A DNA stretch of 64,000 bases, taken from positions 195,030-259,029 of the forward strand of contig CBDFLQ010000005.1 in the NCBI GenBank assembly GCA_965249275.1. The letters are read 5' to 3'. Numbering within the stretch: position 1 is the first letter of the stretch; each line of letters opens with the position of its first letter. This document shows, in pieces, positions 9,623 through 47,893 of this stretch. The translations under genes and the position numbers were made by a program. Under the pieces are notes generated by a model. That model was not told where the DNA came from. It made no database searches and worked only from the letters and a program-made list of their open reading frames with translations. The DNA is from Dehalococcoidia bacterium. Its GTDB lineage: Bacteria; Chloroflexota; Dehalococcoidia; Plut-88900.

Positions 9623-10043
9623 CCTCCTCTTGGTCCCCGTCTGCACAGCCGACTCACTACCGCCGACATCCTCACCTCTTCTTTCCGAACGGTTTTCCCT
9701 CCGACCCAACAACCCCATACACCTAATCCTGAAGGACCTTGCCCAATTCTTAAACTCCAGCAGCCATTCCAACACCCCTCTCCCCGAGAATTTCTCCTTC
9801 CCTGGCCTATGATTCAAATTCCCTCCGACAAGCAGACAATCAGAATTCGTGCCTGCTGCCCGCAAACAATCAAACACAAAGCTGATTCCTTTGATTGCCC
9901 CCTTCGACTTTGATAGTAGTATGTCAACTTGCCCCCACGCCTTGCCTCCCACCCCCTATCCGCCTAAACTATCCCAGCATCTCTGGTATAACATTGTCTA
10001 ATACACACAATAACCAATTGCATGGATTCACACCCTGGGGAGA

Positions 10044-36865: not shown

Positions 36866-36890
36866 TCGGGCCGTAGGCTCGCCTCGGCGA

Positions 36891-36933
36891 GTGACATCTC
36901 CCCTTGACCCGATAAGAACATATGTTGTATATT
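36891..36933 (+). promoter_or_regulatory. conserved promoter module, copy C (TTGACC-18-TATATT)
   Basis: GTGACATCTCCCCTTGACCCGATAAGAACATATGTTGTATATT aligns, spacer included, with the modules upstream of the two large ncRNA candidates. Confidence 0.6.
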
Positions 36934-37021
36934 CCCACCCATGACCACCTCTCTCCAACTCACCTTTCGTCCTGCCCCTTCGGCCCCGCGAAAAACTTTC
37001 GCGAACCTTCTAGGCGTCATT

Positions 37022-37112
37022 CAATCAAAACAGCTACGAATTCAATCAACCTTCAATCAAGTTCAATCGACTTTCAATCAAGACCAATCATCCTCCAATC
37101 AATCGTCAATCA
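37022..37112 (+). repeat. array of eight direct (T)TCAATCA repeats at 10-11-bp spacing
   Basis: CAATCA (one CAATCG) starts at 37022, 37043, 37054, 37064, 37075, 37085, 37096 and 37107. The array sits between two convergent genes. Confidence 0.9.
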
Positions 37113-37126
37113 AAGGGACGGCTCGC

Positions 37127-38425
37127 CTAAAGAGTCTTCCGCCAGTCCGCCGAGTCCCCCTCCTGGAAGCGGGTGAAACGGAAGGGGTGAAGATCGACGC
37201 TTGGTGTCTCTCCCATGACAAGCTGAGACATAACCAGCCCAGCCCCGGGGCCCATGGCGATCCCGTGGCCGCTCATCCCCGTGGCGAAGTAGAACCCCTT
37301 CACGCCGGGGACCTCCCCCAGAACAGGCGTAGCATCAGGGCTGGCGTCTATCCTGCCCGCCCACGTCCGCTGTATGCCCAGATCTCCAACCGAGGGCAGC
37401 AGCTTTCTCAAATGGCTAATCGACTGCTCGACAAACCGGCCATTGGGCTCAGGCTCAACCCCGACAGTGTGTGCGAAGGGGTGGGCTTTGGCCGGGGAGC
37501 CGGGCAGTGCCCTCAGCACATCATCGAACAGTTCCTTGCCGACGTGAACATTCATCGTCTTCTTCACCCGCAGAAAGTTGCGTATGAAAAGCCCGAAATT
37601 TTGCAAGGATTGAAGATCGACGTAGTAGTCTGACCTCGTGCCGTTCGATATGTAGAAGGTCCCGTCCCGCTTCTGCCGAAAAGTCACGTCCGGGGTCATC
37701 ACCGTGCAGTGGGAGATAATGTCGGTGGGCTCGGTGCAGACGACGGTGCCTTTCACCACCCGCTGGGGCAGGTGAACTCCCACCATCCGCCCAACCTTCG
37801 ATGCCCAGGCCCCCGCCGCGCAAACAACCTTATCCGTTTCAATTCGACCCTTGTCGGTGACGACGGCTTTAACGGCGCCACCCTCCACTTCTAACCCTTC
37901 CACAGCGCGCCCGGTGTGTAGAGCGACCCCACTTTCTCTAGCGGCCCAGGCTATCGCCTCGGTTGCGCGGCGGGGCTCGGTCTGGCCGTCGGAGGGAGTG
38001 TGGATTCCACCAACGAACGGTCCCTCGAGCGCGGGTATCTCGCGCTTAACTTCGTCCCTGGTTAGGACCCTGGTGTCGAGACCCAAGACTCGGGCCTCCC
38101 GGGCCCAGTCCTCGAAGTGAGAGAGGTCCTCTTCCGTGTAGGCCAGCTTGAGGGACCCTTCCTCAATCCATTCAACGTCCGCGCCTATTTCGTCGGTGAG
38201 CCCCGACCAAAGGCCCTTGGAGAACGTGACAAGGGGAAGCTCTCTCGGGTTCCGACCCTGCTGCCTGACCCAGCCCCAGGCTCGGCTGGACTGCTCGCCT
38301 GCTACCTCACCCTTCTCCACGATTGCAACTTTCACGCCTCTCTTGGCGAGGTAATACGCCGTGCAGCACCCGACAATCCCCGCCCCGATGATGACCACGT
38401 CGGCTTTGGAATCGTTAGTTGTCAT
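37127..38425 (-). CDS. FAD-dependent oxidoreductase (DAO family; sarcosine/D-amino-acid oxidase-like)
   Basis: Dinucleotide fold DVVIIGAGIVGCCTAYYLAKRGVKVAIVEKG and C-terminal GFYFATGMSGHGIAMGP. Start is at 38425 (GAGGAGG upstream) or 38455. Confidence 0.8.
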   Translation of the reverse strand: MTTNDSKADVVIIGAGIVGCCTAYYLAKRGVKVAIVEKGEVAGEQSSRAWGWVRQQGRNPRELPLVTFSKGLWSGLTDEIGADVEWIEEGSLKLAYTEEDLSHFEDWAREARVLGLDTRVLTRDEVKREIPALEGPFVGGIHTPSDGQTEPRRATEAIAWAARESGVALHTGRAVEGLEVEGGAVKAVVTDKGRIETDKVVCAAGAWASKVGRMVGVHLPQRVVKGTVVCTEPTDIISHCTVMTPDVTFRQKRDGTFYISNGTRSDYYVDLQSLQNFGLFIRNFLRVKKTMNVHVGKELFDDVLRALPGSPAKAHPFAHTVGVEPEPNGRFVEQSISHLRKLLPSVGDLGIQRTWAGRIDASPDATPVLGEVPGVKGFYFATGMSGHGIAMGPGAGLVMSQLVMGETPSVDLHPFRFTRFQEGDSADWRKTL

Positions 38426-38484
38426 AGCCTCCTCGGGCCCGGGCTGGTTGTCCATACATCAGCCGCAACGATTTGGAGAGCAAT

Positions 38485-47361: not shown

Positions 47362-47893
47362 ATGTCAACAAACCTGGACTATAGTCCACTCTATTCTACC
47401 GCTTGAGCGTTGGACTATCGAAGCATTACTAAAGGGTAGGCAGTCGCGATGCAGGTCGTCAAAGCTAATGGAACCAAGCCCCCTCGGCTAGTTCAAGCTT
47501 ATCGCTGACTCTGCAGCGTTCGCCTGCGACCTCCTCCCACCGTCATTCCCGACCACGATCGGGAATCCAGGGTCGGGAGTCCGCCAAAATACGAACGGAC
47601 AATAGGCCAATTGTGACATGGGCCTATTGCCTCGACCCCACACCACCACCCTATAATGGCGTATGTCCTTCCTCTTCCTTATCACTGTACCCTCCACCCA
47701 AGGGAACCGCGGAAAGTTTTCCCTCATATCAATCAAACAGGCACGGTTTTTTGATAGTCTCAATCAAATGCCCTATTTATGACAAGCAACTGCTCCCGTT
47801 CATCGAACGCTTACATCCTCTGGTCTAGAAACCCCAGACCCTGTTAAACTGCCTTTCCTGTCATTTGAAGTTCGACCCTCCGGAGGGAGCCCC

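What the first reader, a model, noticed from the sequence alone, without database searches (positions are those of the whole stretch)
37022..37112. Eight CAATCA direct repeats spaced 10-11 bp apart, directly downstream of promoter module C
CAATCA (usually TTCAATCAA) starts at 37022, 37043, 37054, 37064, 37075, 37085, 37096 and 37107. The spacings are 21, 11, 10, 11, 10, 11 and 11 bp, close to one helical turn. The array lies between the end of hsdS and the end of an FAD oxidoreductase gene, which are convergent, so it is not an ordinary operator region. Two readings are possible. As DNA, it could be an iteron or centromere-like array: plasmid partition sites and replication origins use about 10 direct 11-bp repeats, and the array adjoins the R-M island. 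As RNA, it could be a ~150-nt transcript from promoter C (predicted start ~36940) carrying eight UCAAUCA motifs, analogous in principle to protein-titrating sRNAs with reiterated motifs. A 7-bp hairpin CGCGAAA-AAC-TTTCGCG precedes the array at ~36987-37003.
Basis: seen in the sequence. Interest (0 to 1): 0.6.

Follow-up and report, generated by a model that had tools for sequence, protein, structure and literature searches.

The report
Dispersed promoter-side CAATCA repeat arrays
The phased CAATCA array is real, but it is one copy of a previously undescribed repeat family found up to about 50 times per genome in one genus of uncultured Dehalococcoidia, usually just upstream of gene promoters, and it is not a plasmid-type iteron or centromere.

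Summary
Seven CAATCA and one CAATCG start at the stated positions, spaced 21/11/10/11/10/11/11 bp, downstream of a strong sigma-70-type promoter.

The array is not unique. A near-invariant 40-nt "head" followed by TTCAATCAA units occurs 2-53 times per genome in 8 of 9 genomes of this genus. It was found nowhere else among about 185,000 species genomes.

Copies point at the downstream gene in 88% of cases, with a median of about 107 nt to the start codon. Those genes include recA, gyrB and rpsB. Unit number varies between species and strains.

An older, degenerate form sits at the same promoters in this genome, for example upstream of gyrB. Same-orientation units lie 10/11, 20/21 or 30/31 bp apart in different element architectures.

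The window copy is atypical. A transposon-type promoter is fused to leader, head and array, and the unit ends 13 bp from the stop codon of a convergent FAD-oxidoreductase gene. This unit is conserved at that site in two other species and absent in six. Its upstream flank differs each time, so it has no link to the R-M genes. One metatranscriptome contig covers it.

My best reading, inferred and not shown, is a one-face docking array for a DNA-binding protein. RNA-level and selfish-DNA readings remain open.

The parts
36868..36903 (+). Upstream part of the promoter module: GGGCCGTAGGCTCGCC-TC-GGCGAG hairpin plus GTGACATCTCCCC. The same block precedes the head+array units L007 (G005) and L019 (G002).
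   Evidence: Earlier notes e1-3529533 and e1-3529531 place this module at one end of a ~0.7-kb non-coding mobile element.
36904..36933 (+). Sigma-70-type promoter TTGACC-18-TATATT, with the palindrome-like GAACATATGTTG in the spacer. The predicted transcription start is about 36940-36941.
   Evidence: 10/12 match, the only promoter-like site in 1 kb; the two hexamers line up with like hexamers in the G004 and G006 orthologues (read off the alignment).
36941..37012 (+). G-poor leader with conserved blocks CCCACCCATG, TCCAA and CGCGAAAAACTTT. The ATG at 36941 opens frames that are not conserved between orthologues.
   Evidence: sequences read in frame: G004 has a stop after 32 codons and G006 uses another frame across the A-run.
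36987..37003 (.). CGCGAAA-AAC-TTTCGCG hairpin. Only the inner A-run/T-run box (GAAAAACTTT) is kept in relatives. Old-type elements carry GGAAAnTTTCCC at the same place.
37013..37051 (+). Family 'head' GGCGTCATTCAATCAAAACAGCTACGAATTCAATCAACC, holding units 1 and 2 set 21 bp apart. It differs at only two positions among the three orthologues.
37020..37114 (+). Array of TTCAATCAA-type units, core starts at 37022, 37043, 37054, 37064 (CAATCG), 37075, 37085, 37096 and 37107, alternating 11 and 10 bp.
36961..37122 (.). Stretch covered by one 183-nt contig of a sponge metatranscriptome. It has 2 mismatches plus one extra 21-nt unit inserted after 37072.
   Evidence: A DNA metagenome (X6) also shows a +21-nt allele.
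37127..38455 (-). Convergent FAD-dependent oxidoreductase gene (Pfam DAO). Its stop codon lies 13 bp beyond the array. This gene anchors the orthologous comparisons.
47716..47770 (+). Old-type CAATCA element in the same window: GGAAAGTTTTCCC..CAATCAAACAGGCACGG..TTTTTTGATAG..CAATCAAAT. Its direct units are 31 bp apart and it lies 119 nt upstream of a co-directional gene.
9836..9897 (+). Copy of the second CAATCA-bearing mosaic module (GACAATCAGAATTCGTGCCTG..CGCAAACAATCAAAC), followed by an inverted unit TTTGATTG that doubles as a -35-like hexamer.

Best explanation
What it is (shown). The array is the terminal module of a genus-specific interspersed repeat. A near-invariant ~40-nt head is followed by a variable number (2-15) of TTCAATCAA units of 10 or 11 bp. 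Unit number changes in steps of 10, 11 or 21 bp.

Family members sit immediately upstream of genes and point at them. Many sit at the same orthologous promoters in different species. An older, degenerate version of the element occupies the same kind of site in this genome, and in two cases the same promoter.

The window copy is a special arrangement. A transposon-type promoter module is fused directly to leader, head and array. The unit ends 13 bp from the stop codon of a convergent FAD-oxidoreductase gene and is kept at that site in three species.

How it most likely works (inferred). Each TTCAATCAA unit is a docking site on double-stranded DNA for one subunit of a sequence-specific protein. 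Same-orientation units lie whole helical turns apart, so bound subunits would line up on one face of the helix and could bind cooperatively.

At most loci this protein-coated stretch would lie between about -45 and -150 of the downstream promoter, the position of an upstream regulatory or insulating site. In the window copy it lies at +80 to +175 of promoter C. There it would act as a roadblock or boundary for transcription from that promoter before it runs antisense into the FAD gene.

The binding protein is not identified.
For: Family and distribution. There are two loci in this genome. The array pattern hits 8 of 9 genomes of the genus and 0 of 92 other genomes of the class, and the reversed control gives 0. 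The head occurs 2-53 times per genome. Exact matches among about 185,000 species genomes came only from the same Dehalococcoidia MAGs (in the 80 of 106 stretches listed).

Unit anatomy. Positions outside the search word are T89% T84% before the core and A91% A81% after it. The 1-2 spacer positions carry only 0.6-0.8 bits. Only about 4% of unit positions have lost the core.

Helical spacing in different architectures. Spacing is 10/11 bp in arrays, with a mean period of 10.54 bp in 20 long arrays. It is 21 bp in the head. In old-type elements it is 31 bp, or 20+10 bp. It is 30+10 bp in G003.

Both orientations are used. Old-type elements carry an inverted unit whose arm does not co-vary with the direct unit. 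An inverted CAATC overlaps the -35 of the conserved promoter at the ancestral-type locus in 5 genomes and at window 9889.

Placement. The downstream gene is co-directional in 49 cases and convergent in 7. The median distance to the start codon is 107 nt. A promoter-like site lies between array and start codon in 18 of 39 cases, against 2.7 expected from shuffles.

Same promoters across species. 70 of 98 sampled copies fall into 30 orthologous groups. gyrB and an M20 peptidase gene carry the old type in G000 and the young type in G004/G007/G008.

Constraint. Between orthologous copies, head and array are 94% identical. The coding sequence is 92%, the promoter region 91%, the leader 82% and the upstream modules 78%.

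Window unit. It is conserved in G000, G004 and G006.
Against: - No binding protein is known, and nothing here tests binding.
- The 10.5-bp coherence of long arrays is fully explained by simple 11/10 alternation. The Markov null reaches the observed value in 997 of 5000 simulations. It could therefore be a by-product of duplicating a 21-bp unit.
- The distance from array end to the downstream -10 box varies from +7 to +146 nt.
- One module has a 29-bp spacing, counted by eye from the sequences.
- The near-identity of the non-repeated head across about 50 loci is what copy-paste spread or gene conversion produces. It is not typical of a regulon of binding sites.
- The sense strand is G-poor over leader and array alike. 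DNA binding does not require this.
- Long arrays are associated with promoters of their own, and one RNA contig covers this copy.
- The window copy, like 12% of copies, has no downstream promoter to act on.
Confidence: 0.45

Rival explanations
1. RNA-level element. The leader, head and array are transcribed from promoter C (elsewhere from a small upstream gene or other promoters) into a G-poor, unstructured RNA. Its UC-containing units every 10-11 nt serve as a multi-site landing pad. The most concrete version is a near-ideal Rho loading (rut) site that stops the transcript before it runs into the next gene. A protein- or RNA-titrating sponge, is a second version.
For: - Promoter-like sites 77-114 nt upstream on the same strand occur in 9 of 20 long arrays, 0 of 37 short ones, and 0 on the opposite strand.
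- At the ancestral-type locus the array directly follows a small gene, and I saw no terminator hairpin between them when reading the sequences (not scanned).
- The promoter hexamers are kept in three orthologues although the leader has diverged.
- One metatranscriptome contig spans 36961-37122 and ends at the array's 3' end. Coverage in those runs is patchy and RNA-like.
- The plus-strand RNA is unstructured (z -0.30). C/G is 2.9, and a chain of 8 YC dinucleotides at 9-14-nt steps is present.
- This fits the published requirement of six YC dinucleotides with spacers of at least 7 nt in 60-90 nt of unstructured C-rich RNA (PMC5314796).
- rho is present in 8 of 9 genomes of the genus.
- 44 of 55 copies have a co-oriented transcription source upstream.
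- This reading explains copies that face a convergent gene.
Against: - The RNA evidence is one unstranded contig of depth 3.1. The three runs are sparse over the 20 kb around it (bin depths mostly 0), so chance coverage is not excluded. No contig was found at the second copy or at a related locus.
- No terminator-like site was found on the plus strand.
- Most copies (37 of 57) have no promoter within 220 nt. About a third are preceded by a terminator-like hairpin.
- Rho needs no specific 9-nt core. The array is A-rich (40% A, 29% C) rather than C-rich, and a |C-G| of 20 or more is common in this genome (11% of windows).
- Spacing in multiples of about 10.4 bp across unrelated intervening sequence, and the use of inverted units, have no RNA rationale.
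- rho was not found in this 87%-complete assembly.
Confidence: 0.2
2. Selfish or neutral repeat. The head and array are simply the tail of a mobile or conversion-driven mosaic repeat, comparable to BIME/REP or MITE elements. It homes to promoter-upstream gaps and expands by replication slippage. The conserved core serves only its own spread, for example as a recombinase or transposase binding site, or is kept uniform by gene conversion. The window transcript is incidental.
For: - Heads are almost identical within genomes. About 40 of 53 copies in G004 match a 27-mer exactly.
- Copy number ranges from 0 to 53 among close relatives, and G003 has none.
- The head is often the last member of a fixed mosaic: a terminator-like hairpin, a CTCTCCC hairpin and an AAACAATCA module.
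- 30 of 70 copies lie downstream of, and co-oriented with, the ~0.7-kb mobile RNA element.
- The old type is replaced by the young type at the same promoters.
- Alleles differing by 21 bp exist between strains.
- Downstream genes show no functional theme.
- The window unit is absent at the orthologous site in six of nine genomes.
Against: - Most copies are old and stable at orthologous promoters across species.
- They are as conserved as the neighbouring coding sequence, while adjacent repeat modules drift.
- The core is kept while spacers vary.
- Orientation and distance to the gene are tightly biased.
- No transposase, inverted terminal repeats or target duplications were identified for this module.
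Confidence: 0.25
3. Iteron, replication-origin or partition-centromere array belonging to the adjacent R-M island or to an integrated plasmid.
For: The array consists of direct 10-11-bp repeats phased by one helical turn. It adjoins a lower-GC R-M block.
Against: There are up to 53 dispersed chromosomal copies per genome, upstream of housekeeping genes. The unit occurs without hsdS in G004 and G006 and is absent in the closest relatives. The only ORFs with a family match beside either copy in this genome are HsdS and the FAD oxidoreductase; the two ORFs flanking the second copy match no family, and none is a Rep or Par protein.
Confidence: 0.02
4. Coding repeat. The 21-bp period equals 7 codons, and open frames cross the array (ORFs 36941-37633 and 36922-37176), so it could encode a heptad-repeat peptide.
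For: ORFs are listed. The 21-bp period keeps the reading frame. A leaderless ATG lies at the predicted transcription start.
Against: The open frame differs between the two copies in this genome. It also differs among the three orthologues: G004 has a stop after 32 codons and G006 has a frame shift in the A-run. The long ORF overlaps the real FAD gene in antisense. A G-poor strand has few stop codons by composition alone.
Confidence: 0.02

Closest known systems
Bacterial interspersed mosaic elements (BIME/REP) of enterobacteria and similar mosaic intergenic repeats
   Same: Many copies per genome, strictly intergenic. Fixed orders of short modules including hairpins. Lineage-specific and homogenised within a genome. 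Some BIMEs bind host proteins (IHF, gyrase) and attenuate transcription.
   Different: The active module here is a tandem array of 10/11-bp direct repeats, not a palindromic unit. Copies lie on the 5' side of genes and point at them. BIMEs lie mostly 3' of genes or between co-transcribed genes. No RAYT-type transposase link was tested.
MIRU-VNTR loci of Mycobacterium tuberculosis and STRR heptamer arrays of heterocystous cyanobacteria (own knowledge; STRR is named in PMC2670836)
   Same: Dispersed intergenic tandem-repeat loci of one sequence family. Copy number varies between strains and species. Orientation is biased relative to neighbouring genes.
   Different: MIRU units are 40-100 bp and lie within operons. 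STRR units are 7 bp. Neither has a unique conserved head, a 10.5-bp period or a promoter-upstream position.
Direct-repeat operators of OmpR/PhoB-family regulators (Pho boxes, Streptomyces PhoP direct-repeat units, OmpR F1-F3 sites; own knowledge)
   Same: 10-11-bp direct repeats with a conserved core plus a few variable bases. All are in one orientation, on one helix face, just upstream of or overlapping the -35. The number of units varies from 2 to about 9.
   Different: Those sites define a physiological regulon and are not embedded in a copied 40-nt head or mosaic. Here the downstream genes have no common theme and the binder is unknown.
Plasmid centromere and operator arrays: parC/ParR of R1 (10 x 11-bp iterons) and omega-protein heptad arrays of pSM19035 (own knowledge)
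   Same: Arrays of short direct repeats (for omega, also inverted ones) bound cooperatively by a small protein. At the ancestral-type locus a small conserved basic protein gene lies directly next to the array and a promoter.
   Different: The elements here are chromosomal and dispersed, up to 53 copies. No partition ATPase or Rep gene is nearby. The small protein has no recognisable ribbon-helix-helix or other DNA-binding fold.
Rho utilisation (rut) sites (PMC5314796)
   Same: Unstructured, C>G RNA of 60-100 nt with six or more YC dinucleotides separated by at least 7 nt. It lies at the end of a non-coding transcription unit.
   Different: Natural rut sites are not built from a conserved repeated 9-mer and are C-rich rather than A-rich. 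Termination was not tested.
Protein-titrating sRNAs with reiterated motifs (CsrB/RsmZ, CrcZ; own knowledge)
   Same: A promoter-driven non-coding transcript carrying 8-11 copies of one short motif.
   Different: No hairpin presentation of the motif and no terminator. RNA signal is low. Most family copies lack a promoter.

Membership tests
Plasmid iteron / partition centromere array | Tandem direct repeats of about 10-22 bp, phased by helical turns | tested here: met
   Spacings are 11/10 bp. The mean period is 10.54 bp in 20 long arrays.
Plasmid iteron / partition centromere array | One or few loci per replicon, next to the cognate rep or par genes | tested here: not met
   There are 2-53 dispersed chromosomal copies per genome. 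Flanks differ between genomes. The neighbours that match a family are HsdS and a DAO oxidoreductase; those of the second copy match none.
Plasmid iteron / partition centromere array | Bound by a Rep, ParR or ParB protein and supports replication or partition | not testable with these tools
   Needs EMSA and plasmid stability assays.
Protein-titrating sRNA (CsrB/RsmZ/CrcZ type) | Discrete transcript with its own promoter and terminator | tested here: inconclusive
   A promoter is present and conserved. No terminator-like site was found on the plus strand. One unstranded RNA contig ends at 37122.
Protein-titrating sRNA (CsrB/RsmZ/CrcZ type) | Reiterated motif displayed in a conserved secondary structure | tested here: not met
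   The MFE z-score is -0.30 and the array is unpaired. Rfam gives no hit.
Protein-titrating sRNA (CsrB/RsmZ/CrcZ type) | High abundance and a known cognate RNA-binding protein | tested here: inconclusive
   Contig depth is 3.1, similar to mRNA contigs and below the neighbouring structured RNA at 8-25. No partner is known.
Interspersed mosaic intergenic repeats (BIME-like) | Multi-copy, intergenic, lineage-restricted family with recurring module order | tested here: met
   Terminator-like hairpin, CTCTCCC hairpin and AAACAATCA module precede the head, in the same orientation, in 26, 29 and 22 of 77 copies.
Interspersed mosaic intergenic repeats (BIME-like) | Palindromic (REP) unit and an associated RAYT-type transposase | not tested
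   The young array has no palindrome. The old type has an inverted unit without co-variation. No search for RAYT was made.
Dispersed VNTR loci (MIRU/STRR type) | Unit number polymorphic between strains or species at the same locus | tested here: met
   A +21-nt allele appears in a metatranscriptome and in a metagenome. The recA locus has 8, 4, 4 and 5 units in four species.
OmpR/PhoB-type direct-repeat operator | 10-11-bp direct repeats with a conserved core and variable spacer, on one helix face | tested here: met
   Multiples of about 10.4 bp are also seen in other architectures.
OmpR/PhoB-type direct-repeat operator | Fixed position relative to the -35 of regulated promoters, and a coherent regulon | tested here: not met
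   The distance from array end to the -10 box ranges from +7 to +146 nt. Downstream genes are functionally mixed.
OmpR/PhoB-type direct-repeat operator | Cognate winged-helix regulator binds the repeats | not testable with these tools
   No candidate was identified. The adjacent small protein has no known fold.
Rho utilisation site | 60-90 nt of unstructured C>G RNA with six or more YC dinucleotides spaced by at least 7 nt; Rho present | tested here: met
   C/G is 2.9 and a chain of 8 YC is present. The fold z-score is -0.30. rho is present in 8 of 9 genomes of the genus, though not found in this 87%-complete assembly. The criterion is taken from PMC5314796.
Rho utilisation site | Rho-dependent 3' ends downstream | not testable with these tools
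   Needs Term-seq with and without bicyclomycin, or in-vitro termination assays.

The most novel reading that the evidence does not exclude
The CAATCA elements and the small conserved basic protein always encoded directly upstream of one array (invariant N-terminus RPGAGAP.GNRNRLRHG, no known family) form a lineage-specific promoter-architecture system. The protein polymerises on one face of the repeat arrays placed upstream of dozens of promoters, including recA, gyrB and rpsB. Array length, which changes by whole helical turns, tunes or insulates those promoters. The array module renews itself at the same promoters by homing or gene conversion. A paralogous small protein is likewise followed by the second CAATCA-bearing module.
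Probability: 0.12. Interest if true: 0.75.

Novelty: new variant of a known kind. Interest (0 to 1): 0.5.

Why it matters
If the arrays are protein-docking sites, this genus of uncultured, sponge-associated Dehalococcoidia has placed a common, length-variable upstream element in front of dozens of genes, including core housekeeping genes. The element is renewed at the same promoters over evolutionary time. That would be an unusual, testable example of a repeat family doing regulatory or insulating work genome-wide.

Even on the selfish-DNA reading, the family is a clean case of a promoter-seeking, orientation-locked repeat with a tandem tail that varies in whole helical turns. It is also a ready strain-typing marker for these symbionts.

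For the scan itself, the result matters in two ways. It removes the apparent link to the R-M island and to plasmid biology. It also connects at least three separate first-stage findings in other genomes to one family.

Tried and rejected
- **Over-strict pattern.** My first own-genome pattern required TCAATCA three times and missed even the window copy. I replaced it with a window scan in Python and a looser pattern.
- **Naive gene context.** Calling genes from the longest ORFs was misleading in this GC-rich genome; recA was scored as convergent. I replaced it with a codon-usage model trained on long ORFs.
- **Intrinsic DNA curvature.** A Trifonov wedge model, with parameters recalled from memory, gave 144 degrees for a phased A6 control. 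The array gave 31 degrees against 29 +/- 15 for shuffles. Curvature is rejected.
- **Long-range phase compensation as proof of selection.** Coherence exceeds an independent-draw null (0 of 5000 simulations) but not a first-order alternation null (997 of 5000). This argument is dropped.
- **RNA structure and known RNA families.** Rfam gave nothing. Fold z-scores were -0.30 on the plus strand and +0.37 on the minus strand.
- **Coding potential.** Reading frames are not conserved.
- **Link to R-M genes.** Rejected by the orthologous loci.
- **Small adjacent protein as a recognisable DNA binder.** Pfam gave nothing. PHROGs and NCBIfam gave only noise-level hits to small terminase subunits (E 0.04-0.4). 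The AlphaFold model is helical at pLDDT 67. Foldseek against PDB found nothing with E < 1.
- **More RNA evidence.** No RNA runs hold the G008 recA locus. No RNA contigs lie on the second copy or on the G002 unit.
- **Literature.** A full-text search for TTCAATCAA found nothing relevant.
Full report
**1. Observation**

CAATCA starts at 37022, 37043, 37054, 37075, 37085, 37096 and 37107. The unit at 37064 reads CAATCG, and a further CAATCG overlaps at 37100. The spacings are 21, 11, 10, 11, 10, 11 and 11 bp.

Tandem Repeats Finder reports periods of 21 and 11. The whole window has 28 CAATCA on both strands, as many as shuffles give, but 7 of them sit on one strand within 91 bp. The genome average is 0.16 per kb per strand, and only two loci in the assembly have 4 or more within 110 bp.

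The promoter TTGACC-18-TATATT (36904-36933) is the only promoter-like site in the surrounding 1 kb. The hairpin at 36987-37003 exists. The flanking genes are a Methylase_S (HsdS) ORF and a convergent DAO-family FAD oxidoreductase.

**2. The array is one member of a family**

The second locus in this genome lies on contig 7. It shares a nearly identical 40-nt "head", (T)TC(T)AGGCGTCATTCAATCAAAACAGCTACGAATTCAATC, followed by a longer array. Its flanks are otherwise unrelated.

A pattern of four cores spaced 11/10/11 hits 8 of the 9 genomes of the genus. It hits none of 92 other genomes of the class and gives nothing for the reversed control. The head alone occurs 2, 7, 4, 0, 53, 9, 39, 15 and 35 times in G000-G008. 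An exact-match scan of one genome for each of about 185,000 species returned 106 stretches; the 80 listed all come from six Dehalococcoidia MAGs of this group.

Inspection of 57 copies shows two forms:
- A short form with 3-5 units of mostly 11 bp. It has no promoter of its own and is the majority in G004, G006, G007 and G008.
- A long form with 7-15 units alternating 11 and 10 bp.

**3. Where the copies lie**

I called genes with a codon-usage model. In 8-kb loci the downstream gene is co-directional in 49 cases and convergent in 7. The median distance from array end to start codon is 107 nt. The upstream gene is divergent in 34 cases and co-directional in 18, and lies about 1 kb away.

A strong promoter-like site lies between array and start codon in 18 of 39 cases, against 2.7 expected from shuffles. 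The -10 box lies +7 to +146 nt from the array end. Downstream genes include recA, gyrB, rpsB and a class-I Glu/Gln tRNA synthetase. By eye they also include pnp, eno, a tRNA gene and many catabolic enzymes. No single functional theme emerges.

The head is often the last, gene-proximal module of a fixed mosaic. The mosaic runs: terminator-like hairpin, CTCTCCC hairpin, AAACAATCA module, head. In 30 of 70 cases a copy of the ~0.7-kb structured-RNA element described in earlier notes lies within 1.5 kb upstream. All 30 have the same orientation as the head.

**4. Age and constraint**

Of 98 sampled copies, 70 fall into 30 groups that share the orthologous downstream gene in two to four species. 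Unit numbers differ within groups; the recA locus has 8, 4, 4 and 5 units.

Identity between orthologous copies, by segment:

| Segment | Identity |
|---|---|
| Head | 94% |
| Array | 94% |
| Promoter region | 91% |
| Coding sequence | 92% |
| Leader | 82% |
| Upstream modules | 78% |

Within units, the positions outside my search word are T89% T84% before the core and A91% A81% after it. The 1-2 spacer bases are much more variable. The repeats therefore vary in number but not freely in sequence.

**5. An older layer and a likely place of origin**

This genome holds about 10 "old-type" elements. Their order is:
- a small palindrome GGAAAnTTTCCC
- a direct unit CAATCA(A)
- ACAGGCACG
- an inverted unit TTTTGATTG
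- a second direct unit 31 bp after the first (variants 20+10 bp)

Nine of the ten lie 67-271 nt upstream of a co-directional gene; for the tenth I saw by eye a ribosome-binding site and ATG just after the element. One is in the window, at 47716-47770. The arms of the inverted repeat do not co-vary.

The gyrB gene and an M20 peptidase gene carry the old type in this genome. They carry the young head+array at the same place in G004, G007 and G008. The same promoters have therefore carried such an element since before these lineages split.

One locus stands out. A conserved 102-aa basic protein has an invariant N-terminus RPGAGAP.GNRNRLRHG. It has no Pfam, PHROG or NCBIfam family above noise, a helical model at pLDDT 67, and no Foldseek match. 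All 8 homologues of at least 74% identity in the genus, and a 61%-identical homologue from another metagenome, share the same downstream layout. About 100 nt after the gene comes a head+array. In all but one of these loci (the second copy in G004), this is followed by a conserved promoter and a membrane-protein gene.

G003 has no dispersed young copies, and G001 has few. In both, the protein is only 48-51% identical and the site has just 1-3 units. An inverted CAATC overlaps the -35 of the conserved promoter in five genomes.

A paralogous small protein in this genome is followed by the other CAATCA-bearing module. The same is true in a related metagenome contig.

**6. The window copy**

At the 3' end of the orthologous FAD gene, G004 and G006 carry the same unit: promoter module, leader, head and array ending 12-15 bp from the stop codon. 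Their FAD proteins are 77-78% identical to the window's. Their upstream flanks are unrelated.

The other six genomes lack the unit at this site. They include the three closest relatives (FAD 95-96% identical). The unit is thus tied to the FAD gene's end, not to hsdS.

The three units align over their whole length at 78% column identity. The -35 and -10 hexamers are kept, as are CCCACCCATG and the A-run/T-run box. The head differs at only two positions. Reading frames from the ATG at the predicted start are not conserved.

Promoter-like sites 77-114 nt upstream of the head occur in 9 of 20 long arrays and 0 of 37 short ones.

**7. RNA evidence**

One sponge metatranscriptome (X17) contains a 183-nt contig matching 36961-37122, with 2 mismatches and one extra 21-nt unit. 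A DNA metagenome shows a +21-nt allele too. The contig's depth (3.1) is like that of mRNA contigs nearby. The three RNA runs are sparse over the surrounding 20 kb, so this is weak, unstranded support.

No RNA contig was found on the second copy or on a related unit. No RNA runs exist for the G008 recA locus. The predicted RNA is unstructured on either strand and matches no Rfam family.

**8. Mechanism**

Several facts point to recognition on double-stranded DNA:
- The unit has a 9-bp core plus a variable spacer.
- Same-orientation cores lie 10/11, 20/21 or 30/31 bp apart in architectures whose intervening sequences are unrelated.
- Inverted units are used without hairpin co-variation, including one over a -35.
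- The elements sit in an oriented, promoter-upstream position at the same genes across species.

I therefore favour a one-face docking array for a sequence-specific protein. It would act as an upstream regulatory or insulating site. In the window copy it would be a roadblock downstream of promoter C.

This is inference, and several points weigh against it:
- The 10.5-bp coherence of long arrays needs no more than 11/10 alternation.
- Intrinsic curvature is not predicted.
- No binder is known.
- The homogeneity of the head indicates copy-paste spread or conversion.

The RNA-level rival explains the promoter-bearing and convergent copies better. Its most concrete form is a Rho loading site. The array has a chain of 8 YC dinucleotides at 9-14-nt steps, C/G is 2.9, and the RNA is unstructured. 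rho is present in the genus, and the criterion comes from PMC5314796. It does not explain the helical multiples or the inverted units.

A selfish-repeat reading remains substantial. The iteron/centromere and coding readings are rejected.

**9. Comparison and novelty**

In kind, this family is closest to mosaic intergenic repeats (BIME-like) combined with dispersed VNTR loci (MIRU, STRR). In anatomy, it is closest to OmpR/PhoB-type direct-repeat operators. It differs from each:
- it has a unique conserved head;
- its tandem tail varies in whole helical turns;
- it takes a strict 5'-of-gene, gene-pointing position;
- it turns over at the same promoters;
- one copy is always adjacent to a small uncharacterised protein gene.

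A full-text search for the motif found nothing relevant. Three first-stage notes from other genomes describe the same repeats upstream of eno, rpsO and other genes and can now be assigned to this family.

Noticed in passing
window 47716-47770; also G000 C6:527042, C5:168216, C5:329380, C6:287512, C5:478142, C6:840740, C7:356738, C7:812577, C2:26773: About 10 old-type CAATCA elements: GGAAAnTTTCCC, direct unit, ACAGGCACG, inverted unit, then a second direct unit 31 bp after the first. Nearly all lie 67-271 nt upstream of a co-directional gene. gyrB and an M20 peptidase gene carry this type here and the young head+array in other species.
   Followed up: partly
G000 C7:204857-205162(-) (locus L083) and orthologues L084-L089, L092, L095: A conserved 102-aa basic protein with invariant N-terminus RPGAGAP.GNRNRLRHG and no known family or fold match. 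In every close homologue it is followed by a head+array and, in all but one locus, by a conserved promoter and a membrane-protein gene. It is a candidate partner of the repeats.
   Followed up: partly
G000 C7:725249-725548(+) and locus L202:1201-1800: A paralogous small protein (MPRGGRRPGAGAPKGNYNAFKHG...) is followed by the second CAATCA-bearing module and then the promoter of an MmgE/PrpD-family gene. The N-terminal motif defines a broad family of about 150 clusters of unnamed small proteins.
   Followed up: partly
window 9836-9897: A copy of the second CAATCA module, followed by an inverted unit TTTGATTG. The reverse complement of CAATCAA is TTGATTG, a -35-like hexamer. The same overlap of an inverted unit with a -35 is seen at the ancestral-type locus in five genomes.
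   Followed up: partly
window 36916-36927; L007/L019 and L077 promoter spacers: Each copy of the promoter module has its own palindrome between -35 and -10. The window has GAACATATGTTG, which resembles a Gram-positive LexA (Cheo) box. G002/G005 have GTACACATGTAC and G006 has CATACGAACTTGTATG. This suggests operator sites within a mobile promoter.
   Followed up: no
G004:C1:2729514, G005:C1:348748, G007:C1:533565, G008:C1:340524: A head or array lies 0-1.3 kb downstream of the rho gene on the same strand in four genomes. This may be one orthologous locus and may be coincidence.
   Followed up: no
loci L096-L175 (1.5 kb upstream of heads): 30 of 70 heads have a copy of the ~0.7-kb structured-RNA element upstream, and all 30 are co-oriented with the head. 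The two repeat families share the same promoter-upstream gaps and orientation but occur independently; for example, copy A in the window has no array.
   Followed up: partly
loci L001, L051, L055-L070 (upstream of heads): A recurrent long hairpin, CCAAACTAGAGG-stem-loop-stem-CCTCTGTTTTTT, has stem sequences that differ between copies while pairing is kept, and is flanked by A- and T-runs. It looks like a bidirectional intrinsic terminator carried as a repeat module.
   Followed up: no
window 37125 junction (run X1 loose end): Some strains in the source metagenome carry the array-less junction seen in G002/G005 (TCAGCCGAC..GGGGCAAGGGGGAAGG) next to the FAD stop codon. Presence or absence of the unit is therefore polymorphic in the population.
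   Followed up: no
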